Shown here: piece after piece, positions 2,241 to 55,933 of the stretch
How the letters are laid out: every line of letters begins with the position of its first letter
How positions within the stretch are numbered: the first letter of the stretch is position 1
Assembly: GCA_963840975.1 (NCBI GenBank)
Contig: CAWJBC010000021.1
Location: 568,862 to 632,861 of the forward strand
Source: an uncultured Bacteroidales bacterium
GTDB taxonomy: Bacteria; Bacteroidota; Bacteroidia; Bacteroidales; JAADJA01
Direction of reading: 5' to 3'
Length of the DNA: 64,000 nucleotides
The notes under the pieces: model-generated
What the model saw: the letters and a program-made list of their open reading frames with translations, nothing else
Databases searched by the model: none
What the model was told of the DNA's origin: nothing
Position numbers and translations under genes: made by a program

Positions 2241-3593
2241 TTATTGAGCCTTCCGTACGATTAACTGTCCTGTTTGGTAGCCCGTAACTTTAACATTCGT
2301 TTCTTTCTCAATATATCCTGCTTCGGCGGTTGCATCATAGATGTCACCGTCAACCATCACTTTACCGGCCGGACGAAGAATTGTATGCGCCACACCTATT
2401 TTCCCGACCATACTTTTATAGTGGGAGTCGGAGGAGGTAAACCCATCTTCATGATTTTGCACAGAGTCGAGGGCAAGATGTCCAAAAGTAGTGGTTGTTA
2501 GTATCTTTCTGCCAAAATAAAAAGAAAGCACTATCGCCAGAAATCCGGCTATTACCACTATAAAAAAGGATTTGATAAGACCGATAACCTGAATACCTTC
2601 AAAGTTGAATCCCAGGTTGTAAGTCATGCTAAGTGTAAGTCCTGCCACAACAAAGATAATTCCCAGTATACCAGGAACTCCGAATCCCGGTATCACAAAA
2701 ATCTCTACGGCTAATAAAATTAATCCGACAATGAACAGTAAAATTTCCCAATGTTCGGCGAGTCCTTCAATATAGAGCGGTGCAAAATAGAGCATTGCAG
2801 CTATTGCGGATGCTGCAAGCGGAAATCCCACACCCGGGGTTTGCATTTCGAAATAGATGCCACCAATGATAATCATAATTAAAATTCCACTTACAAAAGG
2901 ATTGATCAGGAAACGGATGATTTTATCAGCCAGGTTCAACCTTTGCTCAATTATTTTATAATCTTTGATGTCGGCTATTTTAAGTACTTCCTCAACCGAT
3001 TCGGCAACTCCTTCGCAGTATTTGTATTTCATTGCTTCATTTGCAGTAAAAGTCAACACCTGACCTGTGTCGGTAATTCCTTCGATGTAAATCCTCGGAT
3101 CCACCATTGCCTGCGCAATATCAGGATCCCTGCCGGATGCTTCTGCTGTTGAGCGCATCATTGAACGCATGTACGATTGGTATTTATCAGGCAAAGGTTT
3201 TCCGGTTTGATCCACCACCGTTGCAGCACCAATATTTGCACCTGACCGCATATAGATTGAATCACAGGCAATTGAAATCAGAGCACCGGCTGAGGCAGCA
3301 TTGTTGTCAATAAAAACCCACACCGGAATTTCGGTATTTAATATTGCGGTCCTGATCGAATCAGCGGCATCCAGCATACCTCCGTAAGTATTCATGTGAA
3401 TGAGGATCAGGTCAGCCTTATTGTCGCGGGCTTCCTTGAATGCTTTCTTAGTCTTATGCCATACGGGAGGCGCTATTTCTTCCTTTATGTCAAATTTGTA
3501 AATAATTTGTGTGGTATCCTGTCCGAAAACAATTTGACAGGCTACTGCGGCAAGAATCAGGGTGAAGAAAAATCGTATAGTTATTTGTTTCAT
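2241..3593 (-). CDS. NfeD-family membrane-bound serine protease (ClpP class)
   Basis: The 450-aa ORF has a signal peptide and a ClpP-like N-terminal domain ([34 protein letters not shown]). It also has a multi-TM core and an NfeD OB-fold tail ([25 protein letters not shown]). Confidence 0.75.
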
Positions 3594-39742: not shown

Positions 39743-39820
39743 GCGAAATGAATTTAACCGTTGATTCTATTTTGAATAACCGCCACTCTTGTTGAAGTAT
39801 GAAGATTAGCAGGTGCATTT

Positions 39821-40158
39821 GCCTGCGCAGTAATGCTTCGTCGTCAAAGAGGATTCCACAATTAATTCTTGTCAATCTTAATTTTAGTCAATTTAGTCAT
39901 TGTGCTGGTTTCCTGCCTGCCCGACTGCATCATTAAGGCGGGCCTGCCCGACTGCGTCATTCCCGTCCGTTCCGGAACGGGCGGACAGGCGGGCCTGCGC
40001 AGTAATGCCACGTCGTCAAAGAGGAATCCACAATTAATTCTTGTCAATCTTAATTTTAGTCAATTTAGTCATTGTGCTGGTTTCCTGCCTGCCCGACTGC
40101 GTCATTCCCGTCCGTTCCGGAACGGACGGACAGGCGGGCCTGTGCAGGAATGCTTCGT
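39821..40158. repeat. tandem composite GC-rich repeat (2 units of 172 and 145 bp plus a partial third head)
   Basis: Unit heads GCCTG(C/T)GCAG lie at 39821, 39993 and 40138. Each unit runs ...CCACAATTAATTCTTGTCAATCTTAATTTTAGTCAATTTAGTCATTGTGCTGGTTTCCTGCCTGCCCGACTGC[27-bp module]GTCATTCCCGTCCGTTCCGGAACGG.CGGACAGGCGGGC. Unit 1 has one 27-bp module and unit 2 has none. Confidence 0.9.
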
Positions 40159-40441
40159 AAAGAATTGCTATCTGACGGTGATCAACTTGTATCATCCGAT
40201 ACTCAACCAAACAGATAACTTCCCAGATGACATTCATCCCAATGAAATGCTGAAAATAAATGTGGGTATCATTGCCAGCGAATTGAAAAAGTAACCTTAT
40301 CGGAGCAGCTTATCAGAATATCTTCAATTTTATAATGATAGTTGCGATGATAAATTCAGTATTTTTGGTCGTTGCATCGTCATCGATTGAAGATTACTAT
40401 TCAGAATAATTGGGTGTTGTTTAATCTTAAATAAAACAAAA

Positions 40442-42895: not shown

Positions 42896-43006
42896 GGATT
42901 CCTGCCTGCGCAGGAATGCTTCGTCGTAGCAAGGGAATTCATGGCTACGAAAGCATTCATGGACACAAAAGCATTCCTGAAAACCGATAGGTTTATCAGG
43001 AATCCA
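42896..43006. repeat. GC-rich hairpin modules (same family as 38334-38414)
   Basis: The region contains GGATTCCTGCCTGCGCAGGAATGCTTCGTCGT ... GCATTCCTGAAAACCGATAGGTTTATCAGGAATCC. Confidence 0.75.
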
Positions 43007-43206
43007 TAAAGAAAATGTGGTTATGTTCTTCATTTTTATTTCCCTTTCCTAAATCTTCTCCTGCAATCCCACTATTTAGAACCCTTTCAAAACATTAACA
43101 AATATTTAACATTTAAAAATCAACAACTTATGATCTATATGTGATATTTTTGTGTTTGATGTCAAAACAAAAAACTATTAATGTTTAAAGTTAATTTATT
43201 CTGAAT

Positions 43207-44052: not shown

Positions 44053-44292
44053 TAAGGAATTGAAATTAAACTGAATAAAAATTACCTGCTGCCAGCAGCG
44101 GTTTGTCAAAAGGCTGGCTGACGTGCTTCGTATGAACATTTGTGCTGAAAGCCCATCCTTCGCCAAGTGCCAAAACCGTTAATAATAATATCCCTTCACT
44201 TTTCTTACAGACTCAATCCAAAGCATAAGTCTTCTGACGAGTTATCACTAAATATAAAAGGAACGCCTTCCGGTATTCCTTTCTTTTCCACT

Positions 44293-44586
44293 AAGCATTC
44301 CTGAAAACCGATAGGCTTATCAGGAATCCACAATCCACAATTAATTCTTGTCATTCTTAATTATAGTCAATTTAGTCATTGTGCTGGTTTCCTGCCTGCC
44401 CGACTGCATCATTAAGGCGGGCCTGCCCGACTGCATCATTAAAGCGGGCCTGCCCGACTGCGTCATTCCCGTCCGTTCCGGAACGGGCGGACAGGCGGGC
44501 CTGCGCAGGAATGCCACGTCGTCAGAAGGGAATCCACAATTAATTCTTGTCAATCTTAATTTTAGTCAATTTAGTCATTATGCTGG
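44293..44586. repeat. second locus of the composite GC-rich repeat (about 1.4 units; the 27-bp module is present twice)
   Basis: The GCATTCCTGAAAACCGATAGGCTTATCAGGAATCC module comes first. The unit follows with CTGCCCGACTGC[ATCATTAAGGCGGGCCTGCCCGACTGC][ATCATTAAAGCGGGCCTGCCCGACTGC]GTCATTCCC.... The unit head then restarts at 44500-44586. Confidence 0.9.
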
Positions 44587-44683
44587 ATTCCTGTTCCCAC
44601 CTTACCCTAACCACCTTACCACCCCGGCTTCCTTACCCTTGCCATCACCCAACAAAAAAAGGAACCCCTTTCGGAATTCCTCT
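44582..44683 (+). repeat. ~100-nt repeat ending in a terminator-like hairpin, copy 1
   Basis: GCTGGATTCCTGTTCCCACCTTACCCTAACCACCTTACCACCCCGGCTTCCTTACCCTTGCC...AAAAAAAGGAACCCCTTTCGGAATTCCT is near-identical to 45862-45970. Confidence 0.85.
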
Positions 44684-44762
44684 CGAGCATTTCTTATGAA
44701 AACCTAATAATTTCTAGCCAATGGTAATGCCATGATTGCTGTCGGCAATCCATACGTGTTTT

Positions 44763-45544: not shown

Positions 45545-45861
45545 ATTATTACGTTTTAAGTTTATTTATAAAATGTCTGATTCTCTCTTTTATGCTTAAT
45601 TACTTTTTATTACCATGATTCACTTTCCGTATTTCAACCTTATCAAATAATAATTTACAAGCAAATTAATGATCAATACAGAAGGATAAAAAATTTAATT
45701 CGGTCAATCGGTAAATGCTGCTATTGAACCGGGATAATTTGAGCTTCAAGGGAAATTTCCTTATGTCATACGAAGTGTATGCGGTGGCCATTGTTATTCA
45801 ATCCGGTCTATCCTTCGATGCTTCGACAAGCTCAGCAGGACCTCATGATGACCGGCATTGT

Positions 45862-45970
45862 TCTGGATTCCTGTTCCCACCTTACCCCTACCACCTTACC
45901 ACCCCGGCTTCTTTACCCTTGCCTTTTTCCTTAATAAAAAAAGGAACCCCTTCCGGAATTCCTTTCTTCC
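45862..45970 (+). repeat. ~100-nt repeat ending in a terminator-like hairpin, copy 2
   Basis: The sequence is TCTGGATTCCTGTTCCCACCTTACCCCTACCACCTTACCACCCCGGCTTCTTTACCCTTGCC...AAAAAAAGGAACCCCTTCCGGAATTCCTTTCTTCC. On the minus strand the hairpin is followed by T7, downstream of gene 46113..47102. Confidence 0.85.
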
Positions 45971-47955: not shown

Positions 47956-49230
47956 ATGAAAACATTTTATTTTGTTCTATTGATTAGCCTCTGTTTGACA
48001 AGTTTGGCACAAGAATATACAATTTTTAGTGAACGTGAAGGCGTTAAGGAGCAACCTGTATTTAATATTTATCAAGAACAATCTGGAAGTATTATTTTTC
48101 AAGGAAATAAAGGGATTAATAGATGGGATGGTAAGAGTTGGTCCTTTTTTAACTTTAAAAACCCAGCAATGGGTAAAAAGTATCCTAAAGAATTTCCTGA
48201 TATACTTTCAAATAAAAATGGTTATGTTCTAATTCAAGTTAATGATACCGGTAGTATAGAATTAAATTCATTAGTGGGATATGATACGAAAATTGATAAT
48301 GAAGGAAACCTTTGGTTTCATGATTGGTTATCCCAAAAAATGTTGTACAAAATTGTGGGAAAAGAATGGGTACCTGTCGTCGATTTTCCTAAATCATCGT
48401 CTATTGCTATCGGAGAAGAGTTTGGTAAAGATGATGCAAGAATGTTTATTGATAGTAAAAACAATATTTGGATTCCAACATCAAAGGGTCTTTTTATGTA
48501 CGATTCAAATAAATTGATATCTTTTGGGGAGACATCTAATCTGCCAATTAGGGGTAATTGTACTTTTATGGAAGATTTAACAGGAAATATTTGGATTAGT
48601 TCCAAACATACCGGAATATACAAATATGATGGCATTAAGTGGGAACAGTATAATTCTGCAAATGCTGGGATTGTCAACAACCATATATGTTCTACTATTA
48701 TTGACAAGAATGGAAAAGTATGGGCTGCTCACTATAAAGGAGGTGTGAGCTTTTTTGATGGAAATAAATGGGTGAAAGAAGAACTAGGTGAAAATTATTA
48801 TGCTCCGGGTTTAAATGGAATAAGTGCAGGAGATATAATAATAGGATTAGCTGATGGAAGTGACTGGGACAAATTTCCTTCTCAAATAATTGCTGACAAC
48901 TTAAATAATATCTGGTATGCAGCAACAGGAGGAGGGCTTTTCAAATATGATGGTGCAAAATGGGAACAAATTCAAAAAGTTTCTCCCAATTCTTCTATTG
49001 AAATGATAATTGATTCAAAGGGAAATATTTGGTTTACCAATTATGCAAATATTGGTTCACAACCAGCTGAAGGATTATTTAAATTTGATATAAAAAATAA
49101 TACATGGAATTCCATCTTAAAGAAGAACATTCATAATCTTTTTGAAGATAAAAGTGGAAGTATTTGGTGTACTAGTCGTATAAACGGTCCGATAAGTGAA
49201 GAAGAAATATATTATTTCAAAAACAATTAA
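47956..49230 (+). CDS. secreted beta-propeller protein with two-component-regulator-propeller (Reg_prop)-like repeats
   Basis: The 424-aa ORF has a signal peptide and about 7 repeats of the type GNIWISSKHTGIYKYDGIKWEQY / NNIWYAATGGGLFKYDGAKWEQI. The gene is AT-rich; two 60-nt lines count 37-38% GC. Confidence 0.7.
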   Translation: MKTFYFVLLISLCLTSLAQEYTIFSEREGVKEQPVFNIYQEQSGSIIFQGNKGINRWDGKSWSFFNFKNPAMGKKYPKEFPDILSNKNGYVLIQVNDTGSIELNSLVGYDTKIDNEGNLWFHDWLSQKMLYKIVGKEWVPVVDFPKSSSIAIGEEFGKDDARMFIDSKNNIWIPTSKGLFMYDSNKLISFGETSNLPIRGNCTFMEDLTGNIWISSKHTGIYKYDGIKWEQYNSANAGIVNNHICSTIIDKNGKVWAAHYKGGVSFFDGNKWVKEELGENYYAPGLNGISAGDIIIGLADGSDWDKFPSQIIADNLNNIWYAATGGGLFKYDGAKWEQIQKVSPNSSIEMIIDSKGNIWFTNYANIGSQPAEGLFKFDIKNNTWNSILKKNIHNLFEDKSGSIWCTSRINGPISEEEIYYFKNN

Positions 49231-49642
49231 TGCCTGTTTTAATTATCCCTGTCATGTTTGAAAAAATTGGCTGTGACATGAGGTATCTCTTAAAAATGCC
49301 CCAACCATTTAATGTTACCAAACCATAAATTAGAAACAAAAACTAAAAATAACTCACTCCATGCCCCTCTTCCAAAACTCCGTCATAACAAAGTACCTGC
49401 AAGCCCAAAACAGGGAAAGGATTGCAGCGCAATGGAATGTATTTAAATCGCATTTCCTCAATCCGGTTATTCAGGAGAATATCAGACTAAGCAAGGAAGA
49501 ACAATACCAGGGGGAGTTCCTGATTGATTTGTTTGTAAAGGTACTGGGGTATACTAAAAATCCGGAACCGAACTTTAACCTCACCACCGAATACAAGAAC
49601 ATCAAGGACAGCAAAAAGGCGGATGGTGCCATCTTATTACAA

Positions 49643-49710
49643 CAAGGGGCTTCAGCCCCTTGCAAAAATGAAACCGGAGATGTTTCGAAGCAAGTAATTT
49701 CAGCCCCTTG
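49643..49710 (+). repeat. in-frame palindromic element pair (CAAGGGGCTTCAGCCCCTTG plus a half copy)
   Basis: A perfect 8-bp stem with a 4-nt loop lies at 49643-49662, and the half copy TTTCAGCCCCTTG lies at 49698-49710. The region translates as QQGASAPCKNETGDVSKQVISAPC. Confidence 0.9.
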
Positions 49711-50651
49711 TGTGGTTGGGGTGATTGAACTGAAAGGAACGAATACCACCGACCTGGGCAAGATTGAAACGCAGGCTTTCGGGTACAAGAACAACCAGCC
49801 CGATTGTGTTTATGTGATCACGTCGAACTTCGAGAAGCTGCGGTTTTATATTGACAATGCCATCGAGCACATCGAGTTTAATTTGTTTGCCCTCACGGAA
49901 AAGGATTTTGAATTGCTGTGGCTTTGCCTGGCTTATGAGAACATCGAAAAGGGAATTGCGAAAAAGATAAAGGATGAATCGGTCGGGCGGGAAGATGAAA
50001 TTACGAAGCAGCTTTATAAGGATTATTCGCTGTTCAAGCGGGAACTGCATCAAAACCTCGTGGCGCTGAATGCGGGTTACGGGGCGCTGGAACTTTTTAA
50101 GAAATCGCAGAAGCTGCTCGACCGGTTTTTGTTTTTGTTCTTTGCCGAGGATCGCATGTTGTTGCCTCCCAATTCGGTTAAGCTGGTGCTGAACGACTGG
50201 AAAGATTTGCAGGAAAGGGATGTGGACGTAACGCTTTACGAACGGTTTAAAAAGTATTTCGAATACCTGAACACCGGCTTTAAAGGCAAACGGTACGATG
50301 TGTATGCTTATAACGGCGGGTTGTTTAAACCGGATGCGGTGCTGGATGCCGTGAAGATTGACAGTGAACTGCTTTACCGGCATACGCACAGGCTTTCGGA
50401 ATATGATTTTGTGAGCGAGGTGGATGTGAACATACTGGGGCATATTTTTGAGAACTCGCTGAATGAGCTGGACGAAATAAAGGCGCAACTGGAGGGGAAG
50501 GAAATTGACAAGAGCAAGACCAAGCGCAAAAAGGACGGTGTGTTTTACACGCCCAAATACATTACCAAGTACATTGTGGATAATACCGTTGGCAAACTGT
50601 GCAGCGAAAAGAAAACCGAACTGCAGATAAACGAGGAGGAATACACATCAA

Positions 50652-50713
50652 CAAGGGGCTTCAGCCCCTTGCAGGAAAAGGACGCAAAACAAACAAGAGG
50701 CTTCAGCCCTTTG
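50652..50713 (+). repeat. in-frame palindromic element pair
   Basis: CAAGGGGCTTCAGCCCCTTG lies at 50652-50671 and CAAGAGGCTTCAGCCCTTTG at 50694-50713. The region translates as TRGFSPLQEKDAKQTRGFSPLP. Confidence 0.9.
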
Positions 50714-51139
50714 CCTAAAAAGGAAAAACAAAAGCAATTAGATAAACTAAATGAATATCGCAACTGGCTTTTGCAGCTTACCATTTGCGACCCGGCTTGT
50801 GGTTCGGGGGCTTTCCTGAACCAGGCTTTGGATTTCCTGATCAGGGAACACAAATACATTGATGAACTGCATGCCAAGCTGTTTGGCGATGCGCTGGTGC
50901 TGAGCGATATTGAAAACAGCATACTCGAAAACAATTTGTTCGGGGTGGACCTGAACGAGGAAAGCGTGGAGATAGCCAAGCTTTCGTTGTGGCTGCGAAC
51001 GGCACAACCCAACCGCAAGCTGAACGACCTGAACAACAACATCAAATGCGGCAACTCGCTGATTGATGACCCGGCAGTGGCAGGAGATAAAGCTTTTAAC
51101 TGGCAGAAGGAGTTTCCGAAGGTTTTTAAAGAGAAGAAT

Positions 51140-51658
51140 AAAAAGATATGGCATGTAACTACCGTCACACATGATACACGGACTTCGCAACGAATGATAG
51201 ACTACAAGGTACGGGAGCGAAGGTCTGACGGAGAAATGCATGTTGACCGATCTATCTTCTTGAATGACGAAGAATCGCTAAAACTTACCGAAATTATTTG
51301 CGATGTCATAATTGAAAATGAATTTAACTGCCTTGCCTACAATGTTTGCGGCGATCATGTTCATTTGATCCTGGTTTGCGAAGAAGATGAATTACCGGAA
51401 ATTGTACGAAAGCTGAAAGGCAAGTCGGCACAAAAGTTTAAGGAATACAAAGGAATAAATAAGGAAGAAACTTTCCATTTGTGGGCTCAAAAATTCAACA
51501 GCAAAGAAATTACCGGCGATGAGCAATTGAGTTCTACGATAAACTATATTGCGACAAACAGGGAAAAACATGAACTGCCCGACATCAACAAGGGGCTGCA
51601 GCCCCTTGTAAAGAAAATGACATGCACACTGGAACACGCATTTCGGACTGAGTATAAG
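51140..51658 (+). mobile_element. HUH (Y1) transposase-like module nested in-frame in the R-M gene
   Basis: The module reads IWHVTTVTHDTR..., GDHVHLIL (HUH at 51356-51364), KLKGKSAQKF, HLWAQKFNSKEI and INYIATNREKH (Tyr codon 51545-51547). It is flanked by MTase sequence: EFPKVFKEK upstream and KGGFDVVIGNPPY downstream. Confidence 0.65.
51589..51608 (+). repeat. in-frame palindromic element
   Basis: CAAGGGGCTGCAGCCCCTTG translates as NKGLQPLV. It shares the 5' flank ACATCAACAAGGGGC with the 50652 copy. Confidence 0.9.
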
Positions 51659-52792
51659 GGAGGGTTTGATGTGGTGATTGGGAATCCGCCGTATGTGGAG
51701 CAAGTTTAAATGAAGAGGATATTAACTATCTTTAGAAAAATTTACTTGACAGTTATAGATCATTCTGAGGTTTATTACTTATTCATTGAAAAAGCAGTAA
51801 ATGTTTTAGCAAAAAATGATGGCTATATTGGATATATTACACCAAATGCATGGTTGTCGAACAAATATGCAAAAAAATTACGTGAATTATTACTATATGA
51901 AACTACTTTTTTGAATATTGATTAATTTCAATCGAAAAATTGTTTTTGAGGAAGCAAATGTTGAAACTGCAATATTTATTTCGAAAAAAGTTTGACAATT
52001 AACAGAACATTTAGTTTTAGTTGGGCAAGATTTGAATAATTTATATCAATATGATTAAAATGAATGGAAACAAAATAATAACTACCTCATATCTATTGCG
52101 CCTGATCAGAAAATAAATCAAATAATTAAGAAAATAAATCTGGCAGAATATAGACTTGAAGATAAACTTGATATTTCTAATGGATTTAAACCATATCAAG
52201 TTGGATATGGAATAAACTTACAAGGTATTCCCTTAACTATTGAAGATGTTAACAGTCGTATCTATCATTCTGAATAAAAATGAAGATAATACTTTCAGGA
52301 GAGAAATTAAAGGGAAAGGTATGTAATAGATATTCTTTCAAATGGGAAGAAGAATTATATAAATTGGGGTAAATGGTTAGATGTCACCTAGAGAAGCATT
52401 CATTATTTGAACAACCAAAAATTATTAATCAGACAAGTTATTAGTGATTATTTCTATGCATTTTTGGATAAGGATAAATATTTTGCAGATCAATACGTTA
52501 TATGTATGCACTAATTATAATGGATAAAGAAAAGGAAAATTTAGAATATCTATTTATGTCTAATTAAACAGCAAATTATATCGGTTTTTATCATTAGAAA
52601 GTTATATTCAGAAGAAGATCGATTTATTTCCAAAAATAAAGGTTAATGAGTTAAAAAATCTTCCAATAAAGAAATTAGAAAAAGAAAATCAACAACCTTT
52701 TATCGAGAAAGCAGACCTAATGCTTTCCTTAAACAAGGAATTGCAGGAAACCTCACAAAAATTCCAAAGGACCTTACAGCGAAGACTGGAAA

Positions 52793-52812
52793 CAATGGGC
52801 TTCAGCCCATTG
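52793..52812 (+). repeat. in-frame palindromic element (variant with symmetric arm changes)
   Basis: CAATGGGCTTCAGCCCATTG translates as MGFSPLW. Changes on both arms keep the palindrome perfect. Confidence 0.9.
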
Positions 52813-53269
52813 TGGGATAATGTGCCTAAAAAGCTTGAGGAATGGTATTTATTAAGCTATGCAGAGTTCATCAAAGAATTGGGCAAGAAGAAAATAAAGC
52901 TATCGCTGAGTGATGAAGCGGAATGGGAAAGCTACTTTACCCAGGAAGCCACCAAAGCACTTGAATTAAAATCGAAAATAGAAGCAACTGATAAAGAAAT
53001 AGATGGGATGGTTTATGGGTTGTATGGGTTGACGGAGGAGGAGGTAAAAATTGTAGAAGGGGGATATTGATTTTGAATAAAATAATATACACCTTTATGC
53101 AGCAAAAGTATACTAATACCACAGACGCTTGTTTGATATTTATAGCTGTTTAAAGATTGAGGTTTATATATAAGCAAGTTGTGCGTCGGCATGACGGAAG
53201 AACATGGCGAGTACAAAGGTCAACTGAACTTGAAAATAGAGATATTATTCCGATTGAATAAAAAACAAA

Positions 53270-54253
53270 ATGGCGGTTGATTTAAATGATTTTAAGCGAA
53301 AAGCTGAATGCAATTACAAAAATGAACGTTACTCAGTTCGGGATAACGGAGCAGTTTTTCGTCATCCTCGCGAAAACAAACCATTGCGAAGAAATGATAA
53401 TCAGTGGACTTTTGGAACACCAAACAATAATGGTTATATGCTTATAGCTTCGGAAGTCGTTCATCGCATCGTAGCATACGCTTTTTTAGGAGAACCACCA
53501 ACTACTCAACATATTGTTGACCATATAGATACAAATCGTCAAAACAATCGCCCTGAAAACCTTCGTTGGCTAACAAAGTTGGAAAACAACCTGAAGAATC
53601 CAATAACTGTAAAAAAAATTGTACTCCACTGTGGGAGTATCGAAGCTTTTCTTAAAGACCCATCAATTTTAAGAAATCATGTGAACGAAGACCCTAATTT
53701 TAGTTGGATGAGGACTGTCACTCCAAAAGAGGCTCAAATATCTTGGGAACGCTTGAGTAATTGGGCAAATACGGATAGTATTTCGACAAAAGGCGGTTCA
53801 TTGGGTGAATGGATATTTAAGAATAACCAAAACACACCCTCATTTCAAGAAACGTCAGAATTTGTAACTTCCGATACGCCAAATGCGATTCAAAAGGATT
53901 GGAAAACTCCGTCCGTATTTCCTTGTTGCCCAAAGGAAAGAACCGATAATCCGATTGATACCTATACTGCAAATTTAGATGTTGAAAAAATATTTTCACA
54001 AAATCAATATTCAAACTCAATTATTGAGGATTTTGCAACATCCAAAGACAAGAAAAAATTGTGGGTTATGTGTAAAAGTAGTGATGATAACGCAATAAAA
54101 CCTTGGTCATTGGCACAAGTAACCTATGAAAATGAATTATTTGTTCATAAAAACCTTGGTAGTTTTATCCAAAAAGACGGTGCAGAAAAACAGTTTACTA
54201 TTGTGCAAGGACTTGAATGGACAGGTGGTCAGACTTTTGATGACTTATGTTAA
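53270..54253 (+). CDS. HNH homing-type endonuclease (NUMOD4-like N-terminus plus HNH_3) with a C-terminal extension of unknown function
   Basis: The 327-aa ORF has YSVRDNGAVF..., NGYMLIASEVVHRIVAYAFLG...HIVDHIDTNRQNNRPENLRWLTKLEN. One 60-nt line counts 30% GC. Confidence 0.75.
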   Translation: MAVDLNDFKRKAECNYKNERYSVRDNGAVFRHPRENKPLRRNDNQWTFGTPNNNGYMLIASEVVHRIVAYAFLGEPPTTQHIVDHIDTNRQNNRPENLRWLTKLENNLKNPITVKKIVLHCGSIEAFLKDPSILRNHVNEDPNFSWMRTVTPKEAQISWERLSNWANTDSISTKGGSLGEWIFKNNQNTPSFQETSEFVTSDTPNAIQKDWKTPSVFPCCPKERTDNPIDTYTANLDVEKIFSQNQYSNSIIEDFATSKDKKKLWVMCKSSDDNAIKPWSLAQVTYENELFVHKNLGSFIQKDGAEKQFTIVQGLEWTGGQTFDDLC

Positions 54254-54278
54254 ACGAAAAATTAATGAAATATTTAAA

Positions 54279-54373
54279 CCCCCGCACCCGTGAGTGTTCC
54301 GCAGGATCACTTGTTGGAATAGGCCCGCCTGAATGAAGCAGTCGGGCAGGTAAGCAAAGTTTTTAACTTTGCC
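54279..54373 (+). repeat. left direct repeat bracketing the 54.5-55.6 kb cassette
   Basis: The sequence is CCCCCGCACCCGTGAGTGTTCCGCAGGATCACTTGTTGGAATAGGCCCGCCTGAATGAAGCAGTCGGGCAGGTAAGCAAAGTTTTTAACTTTGCC. Confidence 0.85.
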
Positions 54374-54548
54374 AGCATAAGCATAGCTCGCTTGCGATTG
54401 TATCGCGGGATTTAAAGTTTATCAGAATTACCCCGGTTTGGGATTGGAATCTGGTTACTTCCAAAATAATCAAATAATTTTGAACCAGATTGAGAAGAAC
54501 GGGAAATGAAGGAGGTTTCACTTTTGGGAAATATTGTATTTTTGTTAA

Positions 54549-54863
54549 ATGAAACTGATTGATTCAAATAAAGACAGGCTTATCGAACTTTGCATTAACC
54601 ACAAGGTAAAAGAATTGTATTTGTTTGGTTCGGCATTAACTGATAGATTTCAGGATTCCAGCGATATTGATATGCTGATCCAGTTTTATCCGGACGATTT
54701 AATGGACTATTTCACCTACCCAAAAGTGGCTGTTCAGTGGTTAAATGAAGCTTTGTGCTTTTATCAAAGTTTGTGCTTGGTTGACAATGAAGTGCTCCGA
54801 AATCACCACCTTCGGGTAGCGCAAAACGTTGTAGGCAATTTAATAAACAAACTTCTATTATGA
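54549..54863 (+). CDS. nucleotidyltransferase-domain protein (MNT/MntA-like)
   Basis: The 104-aa ORF has ELYLFGSALTDRFQDSSDIDMLIQF, a pol-beta-type GS...DxD motif. The C-terminal half is divergent. Confidence 0.6.
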   Translation: MKLIDSNKDRLIELCINHKVKELYLFGSALTDRFQDSSDIDMLIQFYPDDLMDYFTYPKVAVQWLNEALCFYQSLCLVDNEVLRNHHLRVAQNVVGNLINKLLL

Positions 54864-55561
54864 AATACTTTGCATTAATGACTTTGATAGTTCTTGTAAG
54901 TTGCGGAAAGAAAGATAATATTGATGAAAATCCTAATGGGATTGTTCAACCCAAAAGTGATACCTTATCCGTAGAATTAATAAATGGTAACTTAAGGATA
55001 GTTATTGATACATTTCACCCCTTAGAATATCTCCCGGTTTTTCCAGGTTCTTATTGGAAATATGCAGACAATAATAATGATACTATAACAAGTACTACTT
55101 CCTTAAATTTTCTGCCTGACAGTTTCAGCGCAAATAGAACGACTTGGGTGAATACTATCAGTTGGGTTCCCTTTCTTGATGGAATGGGTATTTGGGGATA
55201 TGGTCGTAATGATTGTGGTGTTCATATTAACGGAGGCTGTGAGTTAACACAGCTACTTAATGTTCAGATACCGGTTGGTTCGGTTTGGCTTACCGAATAT
55301 TTTTCTCCAGGACCTCATTTAACAAAGACTTATAGAGAAATTATGACAATGGATACATCATTACTAATAAATAGTGTAGTATATGATTCTGTTGTTAAAA
55401 TCAAAGAGTACGTTGAATATTTATATAGTAATGATCCTCCTCCAAGAGTAACATTTGAATATTACAGCAAAAATGTCGGACTAGTGAAGTTAATAGAATA
55501 TAATAATTGGGACAGTAGTGTTTATGAAAAGAACATTATTGATTACTTTATCAATAAATAA
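54860..55561 (+). CDS. lipoprotein, hypothetical
   Basis: The 233-aa ORF has the lipobox LIVLVSCGKKDN. Its start overlaps the upstream stop (ATGA). Confidence 0.6.
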   Translation: MKYFALMTLIVLVSCGKKDNIDENPNGIVQPKSDTLSVELINGNLRIVIDTFHPLEYLPVFPGSYWKYADNNNDTITSTTSLNFLPDSFSANRTTWVNTISWVPFLDGMGIWGYGRNDCGVHINGGCELTQLLNVQIPVGSVWLTEYFSPGPHLTKTYREIMTMDTSLLINSVVYDSVVKIKEYVEYLYSNDPPPRVTFEYYSKNVGLVKLIEYNNWDSSVYEKNIIDYFINK

Positions 55562-55629
55562 AACTGTACATAATAGCCGCTTACTAGCCAGTGCGACGGG
55601 TTTCGCTAGACTTCAAAGTTTTCGGTTGA

Positions 55630-55774
55630 CCCCCGCACCCGCGAGTGTTCCGCAGGATCACTCGTGGGAATAAACCCGCCTGAATGACTAATTCGGGTAG
55701 GCCCACCTGTCCGCCCGTTCCGGAACGGACGGGAATGAAGCAGTCGGGCAGGTAAGCAAAGTTTTTAACTTTGC
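55630..55774 (+). repeat. right direct repeat bracketing the cassette (with an extra internal palindrome module)
   Basis: The sequence is CCCCCGCACCCGCGAGTGTTCCGCAGGATCACTCGTGGGAATAAACCCGCCTGAATGA[...GGCCCACCTGTCCGCCCGTTCCGGAACGGACGGGAATGA]AGCAGTCGGGCAGGTAAGCAAAGTTTTTAACTTTGC. The bracketed part is the reverse complement of the core of the 39.8/44.4 kb repeat. Confidence 0.85.
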
Positions 55775-55933
55775 ATGCGTGAGTATACAGAATTGAAACA
55801 ATGGGCTAATCCGGTTAACAATGGAATGAAGTATGAAATGAAACCCACAAGTCAACGCCATCACATAAGGCAAGGCAGGAAAACATTCGGGTGGTGAGAT
55901 CAAAGCTGTGACTGTTAAATACCCGTGGTCAGG

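What the first reader, a model, noticed from the sequence alone, without database searches (positions are those of the whole stretch)
49643..52812. Gene-restricted family of 20-nt perfect palindromes inserted in-frame (RPE/REP-like) in all three reading frames
Seen in sequence:
- CAAGGGGCTTCAGCCCCTTG lies at 49643-49662 and 50652-50671.
- Three variants are present. CAAGAGGCTTCAGCCCTTTG lies at 50694-50713 and CAAGGGGCTGCAGCCCCTTG at 51589-51608. CAATGGGCTTCAGCCCATTG lies at 52793-52812, and paired changes on both arms keep it perfect.
- A half copy lies at 49698-49710.
- All copies lie inside the R-M reading frame without stops, and they use three different frames: QGASAPC; TRGFSPLQ / TRGFSPLP / MGFSPLW; NKGLQPLV.
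- Two occur as direct pairs 42-48 nt apart.
- The first pair splits the presumed nuclease motif: KKADGAILL[24 aa]VGVIELKG.
- I did not see this palindrome anywhere else in the 64 kb by eye.

Established knowledge: Rickettsia palindromic elements insert in-frame into ORFs, and REPs are substrates of RAYT HUH enzymes.

Inference: these hairpins may be the cognate substrates of the HUH module nested in the same gene.
Basis: partly seen in the sequence, partly recalled or inferred. Interest (0 to 1): 0.7.

Follow-up and report, generated by a model that had tools for sequence, protein, structure and literature searches.

The report
Tiny hairpin repeats colonising a restriction gene
The palindromes are copies of a 21-22-base mobile DNA hairpin that travels with a transposase-like (HUH) domain built into a restriction-modification gene, and because one unit is exactly seven stop-free codons it adds short loops to the protein instead of breaking it.

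Summary
Five copies, plus a sixth decayed one, of (A)CAAGGGGCTKCAGCCCCTTG(Y) lie at 49643-52813 and nowhere else in the 64 kb. They are 9-bp-stem hairpins; only the 51588-51609 copy is a fully perfect palindrome.

They are REP-like hairpin repeats. They are associated, and inferred to be cognate, with a distinct RAYT-like Y1 HUH clade. Here that HUH is nested in the methyltransferase fold of an MmeI/Eco57I-type IIG R-M gene.

- All 120 listed 90%-identity clusters of that R-M family share this nested architecture.
- In that family, hairpin-derived peptides pile up at six permissive sites.
- One site shows a clean 21-nt (7-codon) insertion; another shows an exact 42-nt tandem duplication.
- In loci selected on the HUH protein alone, 63 of 80 carry a family hairpin within 300 nt of it.
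- The hairpins are about 10-fold denser inside the R-M gene than in its flanks.
- The same 20-mer also occurs in more than 15 phyla, where it is mostly extragenic.
- The HUH catalytic residues are invariant, and dN/dS is 0.03.

HUH-catalysed mobilisation is inferred, not shown. This is a new variant of the REP/RAYT kind: nested in an R-M gene, without a GTAG/CGTC tag, and cross-phylum. The R-M gene in this window is a pseudogene because its TRD has decayed.

The parts
49361..51709 (+). N-terminal ORF (782 aa) of an MmeI/Eco57I-type IIG R-M gene. It carries the PD-ExK nuclease (D88, E123, K125), a helical spacer, MTase motif I (DPACGSG, 50789-50809), the nested HUH, and motif IV (GNPPY, 51683-51694).
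   Evidence: Pfam Eco57I, MmeI_Mtase, N6_Mtase and Y1_Tnp. P0008 is 100% identical; intact homologues are about 1220 aa.
49642..49663 (+). Hairpin copy 1 (site A, nuclease beta-hairpin loop): A-CAAGGGGCTTCAGCCCCTTG-C, read as QGASAPC.
   Evidence: (dG -9.0, z -4.1). The loop has pLDDT <50 in the AF2 model. The orthologous copy in L124 carries a compensatory C8>T/G13>A change.
49691..49710 (+).
   Evidence: P0010 (89% identical) has only one copy at this site.
50651..50714 (+). Site B pair, before MTase motif I. An intact copy lies at 50652-50671 and a degraded copy at 50694-50713. Together they form an exact 42-nt (14-codon) tandem duplication.
   Evidence: Alignment with L124 shows a single 42-nt gap. 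P0010 has 0 copies here, P0009 has 1 and the window has 2. pLDDT is <50.
51140..51583 (+). Nested Y1 HUH (RAYT-like) module. The HUH motif is H666/H668 (GDHVH, 51350-51364) and the catalytic Tyr is Y729 (INYIATNREKH, 51539-51571). It is inserted between EFPKVF (51110-51127) and GGFDVVIGNPPY (51659-51694).
   Evidence: Pfam Y1_Tnp scores 48.6 bits against a gathering score of 23. H666, H668 and Y729 are invariant in 50 family members. dN/dS is 0.034. The AF2 model is confident here. The top PDB fold match is 4ER8, a RAYT-REP complex.
51588..51609 (+). Hairpin copy at site D, immediately 3' of the HUH core: ACAAGGGGCTGCAGCCCCTTGT, a perfect 22-nt palindrome read as NKGLQPLV.
   Evidence: A hairpin at this position (about +410 to +460 from the HUH start) recurs in stand-alone and nested HUH genes. 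It is modelled as part of a helix.
51710..52719 (+). Decayed second half of the MTase plus the target-recognition domain of the R-M gene. It is 25% GC and has stops in all frames.
   Evidence: best match is the TRD of P0071, 46-48% identity, spread over different frames.
52720..53070 (+). Surviving C-terminal ORF (116 aa) of the R-M gene, ending ...YGLYGLTEEEVKIVEGGY.
   Evidence: tblastn gives 73% identity to the C-terminus of P0010.
52792..52813 (+). Hairpin copy at site E: ACAATGGGCTTCAGCCCATTGT, read as TMGFSPL, with a compensatory G4>T/C17>A change. It is a clean 21-nt insertion.
   Evidence: The window and L124 carry exactly 21 extra nt relative to seven homologues.

Best explanation
The palindromes are copies of a very small REP-like hairpin element. 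One unit is R-A-CAAGGGG-NNNNNN-CCCCTTG-Y, about 21-22 nt, with a palindromic centre. Its partner is a distinct clade of RAYT-like Y1 HUH proteins.

**Shown**
- In its simplest form the HUH gene is flanked by the hairpins, about 80 nt upstream and at its 3' end. This is a REPtron/IS200-like layout.
- In this window, and in all 120 listed clusters of the related R-M family, the HUH unit sits in frame inside a surface loop of the methyltransferase domain of a type IIG (MmeI-like) R-M gene. There it has been kept under purifying selection.
- Hairpin copies accumulate in cis at six permissive sites of that gene.
- One site holds a simple 21-nt insertion and another a tandem duplication (42 nt at site B).

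**Inferred**
- The HUH domain binds the hairpin on single-stranded DNA and nicks and rejoins it. This seeds new copies close to its own gene.
- Replication slippage at the hairpins then duplicates them.
- Copies survive in coding DNA for three reasons. One unit is 7 codons. The TTCA orientation has no stop in any frame. The tolerated sites are disordered loops.
For: **Reality and structure of the hairpin**
- There are 5 copies plus 1 decayed copy in 3.2 kb and none elsewhere in the window.
- Four copies fold at -9 to -10 kcal/mol with z about -4.
- Among 201 instances the inner stem pair 8:13 is C:G 158 times, T:A 30 times and other combinations 13 times, 7 of them unpaired.
- An orthologous copy shows a compensatory change.

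**Unit boundaries**
- Only positions -2 (R), -1 (A) and +1 (Y) are conserved outside the 20-mer.
- The 122 unique flanks are otherwise unrelated to one another.

**Insertion and duplication**
- Site E is a clean 21-nt insertion.
- Site B is a 42-nt tandem duplication, with 0, 1 and 2 copies among proteins about 90% identical.
- Six sites have minimal lengths of 11/20/49/13/24/12 aa. Five expand to 32/25/94/204/91 aa; site E also expands, but its upper values are anchor-matching artefacts.

**Link to the HUH**
- tblastn finds the HUH in 6 of 120 hairpin-selected loci. In each the hairpins flank it or lie inside it.
- 63 of 80 HUH-selected metagenome loci have a family hairpin within 300 nt. The density is 1.23 per kb there against 0.107 per kb elsewhere.
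- Density is 0.47 per kb inside against 0.044 per kb outside the R-M span in 63 loci.
- No hairpin occurs within 10 kb of the gene, outside it, in L124, L125, L126 or the window.
- Hairpin subtype tracks HUH subclade: 24 vs 1, 65 vs 1 and 95+46 vs 0.

**HUH competence**
- H666, H668 and Y729 are invariant.
- dN/dS is 0.034.
- The fold matches RAYT-REP 4ER8, then the ISDra2 and IS608 TnpA structures.

**Permissive loops**
- Sites A and B have pLDDT <50.

**Precedent**
- In-frame REP insertions inside tnpA-REP genes of subclass 2.4 are described in PMC6006769.
- Intragenic REPs and RPEs are described in PMC3733652.
Against: - No biochemical or population evidence of cleavage, excision or transposition exists. 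The association could partly reflect shared ancestry, with hairpins inherited within gene lineages.
- If the HUH were an active disperser, neutral copies would be expected in the intergenic flanks. Almost none are seen, so either its action is extremely local or spread inside the gene is mostly slippage or gene conversion.
- 17 of 80 HUH loci have no detectable family hairpin near the HUH.
- The HUH falls below the curated NCBIfam cut-offs for both RAYT (56 vs 80 bits) and IS200 (35 vs 55 bits).
- The hairpin lacks the GTAG/CGTC tag of described REPs.
- Only 64 kb of the source genome was visible, so 'absent elsewhere in this genome' is untested.
- At sites A and B, homologues are too diverged to define the original insertion boundaries.
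Confidence: 0.68

Rival explanations
1. Domesticated function. The nested HUH and its hairpins are a working part of the R-M enzyme or gene. The HUH would use the intragenic hairpins for programmed rearrangement: module or TRD exchange, on/off switching, or loop diversification. Alternatively it would give the enzyme an activity on single-stranded hairpin DNA. On this reading it is not a selfish repeat system.
For: - The architecture is stable. All 120 best R-M homologues (at least 60% identity) keep the HUH at the same position. So do all 10 long HUH proteins tested and the distant R-M lineages L047 and L074 (28% identity).
- The catalytic residues are invariant, and dN/dS of 0.034 is lower than for the rest of the protein.
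- Hairpin sites D and E bracket the TRD region. That region is completely different in P0009, P0010 and the window despite about 90% identity elsewhere.
Against: - The similarity breakpoints of the TRD swap lie right after GNPPYV and about 25-30 codons before hairpin E, not at the hairpins. That pattern fits ordinary homologous recombination.
- Hairpin positions and numbers vary freely between close relatives, and many copies decay. This is not expected for fixed recombination sites.
- Stand-alone HUH genes with the same hairpins exist outside any R-M gene.
- The same hairpin is scattered, mostly extragenic, in many phyla.
Confidence: 0.15
2. HUH-independent origin. The hairpins spread inside the gene only by replication slippage, template switching or gene conversion at palindromes, or they arrive by recombination with other alleles. 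The HUH would be linked to them merely through shared descent from an old REPtron that was captured by the R-M gene and is no longer active on them.
For: - The only events resolved to the nucleotide here are a tandem duplication (42 nt) and tandem arrays elsewhere: L065 with a 36-nt period, L083 with 33 nt and L102 with about 130 nt.
- Repeats of 3' half-copies occur in L019, L047, L055, L061 and L074.
- Dispersal into the flanking DNA is almost absent.
- The co-variation of hairpin subtype with HUH subclade could be phylogenetic inertia.
Against: - The clean 21-nt solitary insertion at site E is not a duplication of neighbouring sequence. Nor are the 122 copies with unrelated flanks.
- Strong purifying selection on the HUH catalytic residues is hard to explain if the domain does nothing.
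- Copies sit at six separate sites of one gene, and at further sites in relatives. This needs a way to move over hundreds of bases.
Confidence: 0.12
3. Selection at the peptide or RNA level. The repeated unit would be kept because the encoded peptide (GFSPL, KGLQPL) or an mRNA hairpin is useful. The DNA palindrome would be incidental.
For: The site D peptide NKGLQPLV is widely conserved at the end of the HUH module and is modelled in a helix.
Against: - The same DNA is read in three frames, giving unrelated peptides.
- It occurs on both strands and mostly outside long ORFs in other genomes.
- Changes are compensatory at the DNA-pairing level.
- Sites A and B are predicted to be disordered.
- In the TTCA subfamily the closing position is A..C on the sense strand, that is G.T on the antisense strand, in 55 of 126 copies. 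This does not favour an mRNA hairpin.
- No Rfam family matches.
Confidence: 0.03

Closest known systems
REP/RAYT systems (REPtrons): E. coli TnpA-REP and Pseudomonas REPIN-RAYT (PMC3479197, PMC3116915, PMC5581495)
   Same: - A Y1 HUH protein is paired with a short GC-rich hairpin repeat.
- The HUH gene is flanked by the hairpins.
- The best structural match of the HUH is the RAYT-REP complex 4ER8.
- Copies are mostly extragenic in genomes where they are dispersed.
- JGI pipelines already label the domain 'REP element-mobilizing transposase RayT'.
   Different: - There is no GTAG or CGTC tag; the conserved foot is RA-CAAGGGG.
- The HUH scores below the curated RAYT cut-off.
- Its motifs are GDH[VI]H and YIxxNRxKH rather than YIxxNP.
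- The same hairpin sequence recurs in more than 15 phyla, whereas REPs are usually lineage-specific and REPIN-RAYT systems are inherited vertically.
- The HUH is a domain nested in an R-M protein, and in those genomes the repeats sit almost only inside that gene.
TnpA-Y1 subclass 2.4 (= RAYT group 4) and subclass 1.2 of Quentin et al. 2018 (PMC6006769)
   Same: [quoted passage not shown] This corresponds to site C here. It is found in Cyanobacteria, Bacteroidetes and scattered phyla.
- Subclass 1.2: it has a DH[IV]H motif, a Y---Q--HH-type Y motif, a specific C-terminal extension and low copy number, and is found in Cyanobacteria plus Bacteroidetes. The present clade resembles this.
   Different: - Subclass 2.4 has NH[IFV]H and YIxNNP motifs and REPs with a GT[AG]G foot. 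Neither is seen here.
- Subclass 1.2 was reported without REPs.
- Long fusion proteins were discarded in that study, so the R-M-nested form is not described there.
- Membership in either subclass could not be tested against their sequences.
Rickettsia palindromic elements (RPE) and intragenic REPs (PMC3733652)
   Same: Palindromic repeats are inserted in frame into ORFs that stay open. They add short peptide segments at tolerated sites, and several insertions can occur per gene.
   Different: - From my own knowledge, RPEs are about 100-150 bp, restricted to Rickettsia, and have no known dedicated enzyme.
- The unit here is 21-22 nt and is linked to an HUH encoded in the same gene.
- The described intragenic REPs carry GTAG/CGTC tags.
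IS200/IS605 insertion sequences (IS608, ISDra2)
   Same: - Both use a Y1 HUH transposase that recognises subterminal hairpins on single-stranded DNA.
- The stand-alone units here have the layout hairpin - about 165-aa HUH - hairpin.
- The ISDra2 and IS608 TnpA structures are the next-best fold and sequence matches.
   Different: - The HUH scores below the curated IS200 cut-off.
- No multicopy full-length element was seen.
- Both ends carry the same palindrome.
- The solitary 21-nt hairpins far outnumber the HUH genes.
MmeI-family type IIL/IIG restriction-modification enzymes (PMC2582602, PMC4833311)
   Same: The host gene has the N-terminal PD-ExK nuclease, helical spacer, gamma-class N6A MTase and TaqI_C-type TRD order of this family.
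   Different: - A roughly 150-aa HUH domain splits the MTase between motif III/GNSL and motif IV (NPPY).
- No paper in the searchable library combines Y1_Tnp/PF01797 with MmeI, Eco57I, type IIG or PglX.
- The copy in this window has a decayed TRD.

Membership tests
Y1 HUH transposase superfamily (Pfam PF01797, Y1_Tnp) | Profile match above Pfam's gathering score | tested here: met
   48.6 bits against a cut-off of 23, over residues 630-732.
Y1 HUH transposase superfamily (Pfam PF01797, Y1_Tnp) | HUH metal-binding motif and a single catalytic Tyr on the C-terminal helix; the characteristic fold | tested here: met
   - GDHVH (H666, H668) and Y729 in INYIATNREKH are invariant in 50 homologues.
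- The AF2 model matches 4ER8, 2XMA and 2A6O at probability 1.0 and TM about 0.5.
RAYT / TnpA-REP | Curated family model (NCBIfam NF047646, REP_Tyr_transpos) above its cut-off | tested here: not met
   56.5 bits against a cut-off of 80. It is still the best-scoring NCBIfam model, ahead of IS200 at 35.5 bits against 55.
RAYT / TnpA-REP | Gene flanked by copies of a hairpin repeat that also occurs elsewhere (REPtron arrangement) | tested here: met
   - Stand-alone genes have a hairpin about 80 nt upstream and one at about +410.
- 63 of 80 HUH loci have one within 300 nt.
- Solitary copies occur in more than 120 genomic loci.
RAYT / TnpA-REP | In vitro cleavage and rejoining of the cognate REP | not testable with these tools
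   Needs purified protein and oligonucleotides.
REP (repetitive extragenic palindrome) | Short (20-40 nt) imperfect palindrome forming a stable stem-loop, repeated many times | tested here: met
   The unit is 21-22 nt. dG is -9 to -10 kcal/mol. Stem covariation is seen. There are 211 copies in 120 loci.
REP (repetitive extragenic palindrome) | Conserved GTAG or CGTC tetranucleotide at the foot (the super-families of PMC3733652) | tested here: not met
   The flank profile shows only R(-2), A(-1) and Y(+1). The foot is CAAGGGG.
REP (repetitive extragenic palindrome) | Predominantly extragenic location | tested here: inconclusive
   In other genomes 81% of copies lie outside ORFs of at least 200 aa. 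In this window and other R-M/HUH loci the copies are almost all intragenic.
Rickettsia palindromic elements (RPE) | In-frame insertion into ORFs that remain open | tested here: met
Rickettsia palindromic elements (RPE) | Element of about 100-150 bp belonging to the RPE sequence families of Rickettsia | tested here: not met
   The unit is 21-22 nt. The RPE size is from my own knowledge; sequence similarity to RPEs was not tested.
IS200/IS605 | Curated IS200 transposase model above its cut-off; multicopy element with distinct left and right subterminal hairpins, often with tnpB | tested here: not met
   NF033573 scores 35.5 bits against a cut-off of 55. No tnpB or second full copy was seen in the loci examined. 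Both ends carry the same palindrome.
MmeI/Eco57I type IIG (IIL) R-M enzyme | Single polypeptide with a PD-ExK nuclease, a gamma N6A MTase (motif I, NPPY) and a C-terminal TRD | tested here: inconclusive
   The nuclease motif, motif I and NPPY are present. Intact homologues have TaqI_C. In this window the TRD part is decayed, so this copy is very probably non-functional as an R-M enzyme.

The most novel reading that the evidence does not exclude
A RAYT-like HUH unit with its own 21-nt hairpins behaves as an in-frame, domain-like genetic element. It has been taken up stably by a large family of type IIG R-M enzymes at one fixed loop of the methyltransferase fold.

On this reading the enzyme has a third catalytic activity, single-stranded hairpin nicking and joining. 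That activity acts on its own gene. It would seed 7-codon cassettes that remodel surface loops and might mediate module exchange, making this a self-diversifying R-M gene.

The interleaving of nested and stand-alone HUHs in the tree would then reflect repeated site-specific entry into, or exit from, MTase genes.
Probability: 0.2. Interest if true: 0.85.

Novelty: new variant of a known kind. Interest (0 to 1): 0.66.

Why it matters
- It links a very small repeat unit (21-22 nt) to a specific HUH clade in a setting where enzyme and substrate lie a few hundred bases apart in one gene. That makes the long-debated question of whether RAYT-type enzymes really mobilise REPs directly testable with one protein and one oligonucleotide.
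- It shows why such an element can colonise coding DNA. The unit is 7 codons long and free of stops in one orientation.
- It exposes an undescribed but common three-domain R-M architecture of nuclease, split MTase and HUH. This matters for annotation, where such proteins are now labelled 'transposase', 'N-6 DNA methylase' or 'PglX'. It also matters for anyone engineering MmeI-type enzymes.
- The conservation of one hairpin sequence across more than 15 phyla contrasts with the vertical, lineage-specific picture of REPIN-RAYT systems.

Tried and rejected
**Literature**
- A full-text search for the 20-mer or its core found no paper.
- A search combining PF01797/Y1_Tnp with MmeI, Eco57I, type IIG or PglX returned no paper with a Y1_Tnp/PF01797 term.

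**Other origins considered**
- Known RNA family: Rfam gives nothing relevant in 49000-53500.
- Phage-borne spread: there are only 7 hits in 2.9 million viral contigs, none with the HUH or the R-M gene.
- TRD cassette exchange at the hairpins: rejected as the simplest reading, because the breakpoints lie at GNPPYV and upstream of hairpin E.

**Analyses that led nowhere**
- Taxonomy of stand-alone HUH clusters through cluster look-up: no names were returned.
- Exact boundaries of the original insertions at sites A, B and B0: homologues are too diverged, and only site E and the site B duplication are clean.
- Single origin versus repeated nesting of the HUH:
  - The NJ tree of a 150-aa domain interleaves nested and stand-alone forms.
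  - Several 'stand-alone' proteins are fragments of broken R-M genes.
  - The question is left open.
- The word-indexed protein search with the HUH alone found only 7 proteins. The exhaustive profile search was needed.
- DNA for P0010, the closest homologue lacking the site B hairpin, could not be fetched.

Full report
**1. The observation**

A search with up to three mismatches finds the 20-mer at 49643 and 50652 (exact), 50694 (2 mismatches), 51589 (1) and 52793 (2). It finds nothing else in the 64 kb, against zero matches in 100 shuffles.

A general scan for GC-rich stem-loops finds no other member of this family in the window.

The common form is a 9-bp stem around a central TC. Only 51588-51609 (ACAAGGGGCTGCAGCCCCTTGT) is a perfect palindrome.

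Four copies fold as single-stranded DNA at -9 to -10 kcal/mol with z about -4. The other two have decayed:
- The 50694 copy has two changes that do not pair with each other (dG -2.1).
- The 'half copy' is a full copy at 49691-49710 that has lost its 5' arm. A 90%-identical homologue has CATGAGACTGAAGCCCCTTG at the same spot.

**2. The host gene**

ORF 49361-51709 (782 aa) is an MmeI/Eco57I-type IIG R-M protein. It has a PD-ExK nuclease, a helical spacer and MTase motif I. An IS200-like Y1 HUH domain (residues about 594-741) sits between EFPKVF and GGFDVVIGNPPY.

The ORF stops right after NPPY. The next kilobase (51710-52719) is 25% GC, has stops in all frames and matches specificity domains of relatives only in pieces.

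The conserved C-terminus survives as ORF 52720-53070 and holds the fifth copy. The gene in this window is therefore a pseudogene. 'All copies in one reading frame' is only true of the ancestral gene.

**3. The copies are insertions with rapid turnover**

Intact relatives are about 1220 aa.

- **Nuclease loop (site A).** The family minimum between KKADG and ELKG is 11 aa. P0010 has one hairpin there, and the window and P0009 have two (32 aa).
- **Before motif I (site B).** P0010 has none, P0009 has one and the window has two. The DNA alignment with P0009's locus (L124) shows a single exact 42-nt gap, which is a tandem duplication.
- **Near the C-terminus (site E).** The window and L124 carry exactly 21 extra nucleotides (A plus the 20-mer) relative to seven homologues. 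No target duplication is apparent.

Across 120 family members, hairpin-derived peptides pile up at six sites. Their minimal lengths are 11, 20, 49, 13, 24 and 12 aa. Five expand to 32, 25, 94, 204 and 91 aa. Site E also expands, but its largest values are anchor-matching artefacts. These sites include a loop inside the HUH domain and the segment just after it. A seventh site was seen in some relatives.

In an AlphaFold model of the window ORF, sites A and B are low-confidence loops, while the HUH domain is confidently folded.

**4. Why coding DNA tolerates the element**

The flank profile of 122 copies with unique flanks shows conservation only at -2 (R), -1 (A) and +1 (Y). The unit is therefore 21-22 nt.

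Twenty-one nucleotides are seven codons. The TTCA orientation has no stop codon in any frame, while the reverse orientation has one TGA frame; this is read directly from the sequence. A simple insertion is therefore frame-preserving by construction.

**5. The hairpin is not gene-restricted in general**

These came from:
- Cyanobacteria (Pseudanabaena, Limnothrix, Nostoc, Spirulina, Leptolyngbya);
- Bacteroidota, including Ignavibacteria, Saprospirales, Ferruginibacter and Tenacibaculum;
- Chloroflexota, Planctomycetota, Alphaproteobacteria, Desulfobacterota, Spirochaetota, Actinomycetota, Deinococcota, Hydrogenedentota, Acidobacteriota, Nitrospirota and others.

The flanks are unrelated to one another, both orientations occur, and tandem arrays and 3'-half repeats are common.

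Inner stem positions co-vary. Pair 8:13 is C:G 158 times, T:A 30 times and unpaired 7 times.

Only 19% of copies lie well inside stop-to-stop ORFs of at least 200 aa, against 66% of random positions. Elsewhere the element therefore behaves like a mostly extragenic REP.

It is rare in viral contigs, with 7 hits and none carrying the HUH.

**6. The link to the HUH**

*Starting from the hairpin.* Six of the 120 loci encode a relative of the nested HUH.
- Four are R-M genes with the HUH at the same position. Two of these are only 28% identical to the window's R-M.
- Two are stand-alone ORFs of about 190 aa.
- In all six the hairpins flank or invade the HUH.

*Starting from the protein.* An exhaustive profile search finds 137 clusters at E<1e-30, both stand-alone (160-250 aa) and nested (700-1270 aa). 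All ten long ones tested are Eco57I/MmeI MTases split by Y1_Tnp.

*Loci selected on the HUH protein alone.* In 80 metagenome loci:
- 63 have a family hairpin (CAA-N-GG...CC-N-TTG, palindromic) within 300 nt of the HUH.
- The density is 1.23 per kb there, against 0.107 per kb elsewhere.
- Stand-alone genes show one hairpin about 80 nt upstream and one at about +410.

*Inside versus outside the R-M gene.* In 63 R-M-type loci the density is 0.47 per kb inside the R-M span and 0.044 per kb outside. In L124, L125 (Flavobacterium sp. 83), L126 (CP065006) and the window, no copy lies within 10 kb of the gene outside it.

*Hairpin subtype follows HUH subclade.* The central octamer, as inferred from the encoded peptides, sorts as follows:
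- GCTKCAGC with the window's clade (24 motifs against 1).
- AGCATGCT with the HNSRYS clade (65 against 1).
- GCTTAAGC and GTTTAAAC (95 motifs together) with the HDSRTS clade, which also carries 46 AGCATGCT-type motifs.

The DNA of L124, L125 and L126 agrees with this.

**7. The HUH is maintained**

H666, H668 and Y729 are invariant in 50 family members.

Between the window and L124, dN/dS is 0.034 for the HUH and 0.082 for the rest of the ORF.

The domain passes Pfam Y1_Tnp. It stays below the curated NCBIfam cut-offs for RAYT (56 against 80) and IS200 (35 against 55).

Its AlphaFold model matches the E. coli RAYT-REP complex 4ER8 best, followed by the ISDra2 and IS608 TnpA structures.

**8. 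Interpretation**

The simplest reading is a REPtron-like pair. A RAYT-like HUH and its hairpin have become lodged in frame in a permissive loop of a type IIG MTase, and the pair has stayed there through the diversification of a large R-M family.

New hairpin copies appear mainly within the same gene, and copies in disordered loops persist. One nucleotide-resolved event is a solitary 21-nt insertion and another is a tandem duplication. That the HUH catalyses the solitary insertions is an inference from the behaviour of Y1 enzymes (IS608, ISDra2, TnpA-REP; PMC3479197, PMC6006769).

The near absence of copies in the flanking DNA is not explained by a freely dispersing enzyme. It points to very local action, or to slippage and conversion as the main route of spread.

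Rival readings are set out separately: a domesticated role in R-M gene rearrangement, HUH-independent spread, and peptide- or RNA-level selection. Whether the nesting happened once or repeatedly is unresolved.

**9. Comparison with what is known**

- In-frame palindromic insertions are known from RPEs and from intragenic GTAG/CGTC REPs (PMC3733652).
- REPs inserted in frame inside the transposase gene itself are known for TnpA-Y1 subclass 2.4 (PMC6006769).
- The present HUH has different motifs (GDH[VI]H, YIxxNRxKH) and resembles subclass 1.2 of that study, which was reported without REPs.
- That study discarded long fusion proteins.
- I found no paper describing the R-M-nested architecture or this hairpin sequence. 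Pipelines already label such proteins 'methylase/RayT'.

I therefore rate the finding a new variant of a known kind. It is REP/RAYT-like in how it seems to work. By curated threshold or by REP tag it is not a demonstrated member of RAYT.

**10. Limits**

- Only 64 kb of the source genome was visible.
- The census of hairpin types in proteins is inferred from peptides.
- The tree is a crude NJ tree of a short domain.
- No enzymology was possible.

Noticed in passing
window 51710-52719: The MTase C-half and TRD part of the R-M gene is 25% GC, against about 45% for the rest of the gene. It is full of stops and frameshifts, and its best match is the TRD of P0071 at 46-48% identity. P0009 and P0010, about 90% identical to the window upstream, carry completely different TRDs. 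The TRD therefore behaves as an exchangeable cassette, and the copy in this window is dead.
   Followed up: partly
window 39967, 40112, 44473, 55715: The 14-nt perfect palindrome CCGTTCCGGAACGG occurs four times, against 0.07 expected. At 40108-40129 it extends to a 22-nt palindrome. It is unrelated to the CAAGGGG family and may be a second repeat or an operator-like site.
   Followed up: partly
window 39743-40175, 42904-43009, 44250-44684, 45856-45966: Several families of intergenic direct repeats are scattered over about 6 kb upstream of the R-M gene. They include units of about 170 nt at 67-97% identity and shorter pieces of 34-107 nt.
   Followed up: no
window 54278-54385 and 55629-55787: Two copies (86-91% identity) of an element of about 110-160 nt, each ending in the hairpin GCAAAGTTTTTAACTTTGC. 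They flank the ORFs at 54549-55561, just downstream of an HNH_3 endonuclease gene (53270-54253).
   Followed up: no
L137:about 3320-3345 (site B0 of an R-M/HUH homologue): A clean 21-nt in-frame insertion of a different palindrome (CCTGCCTG-TCCGG-CAGGCAGG) relative to nine homologues. Other hairpin families also enter this gene family in 7-codon steps.
   Followed up: no
Loci L014, L060, L081, L087, L090, L115, L117 (positions): In a subset of extragenic copies the locus-specific flanks are themselves inverted repeats, extending the stem by 5-13 bp. About 5% of copies have at least 5 extra pairs, against about 0.1% expected. This suggests either insertion into the apex of pre-existing palindromes such as terminators, or an inverted target duplication. 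It is unexplained.
   Followed up: partly
Loci L025, L037, L038, L056, L057, L059, L063, L076, L093, L094, L105, L118, L120 (Oscillatoriales PH2015_14S, Limnothrix): In these cyanobacteria the hairpin sits in the middle of a longer dispersed repeat with conserved arms (...ctgattccaccgt..gatcgtgagggg[hairpin]ttacgacgattgggg..ggaaaatcaacc). This looks like a composite, REPIN- or MITE-like element built around the same hairpin.
   Followed up: no
TTCA-subtype copies in all loci: When oriented by the asymmetric loop, the closing position is A..C in 55 copies, A..T in 36 and G..T in only 12. The element therefore has a polarity, and the extra G.T wobble pair can form only on the TGAA strand. In the window that is the antisense strand of the R-M gene.
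   Followed up: partly
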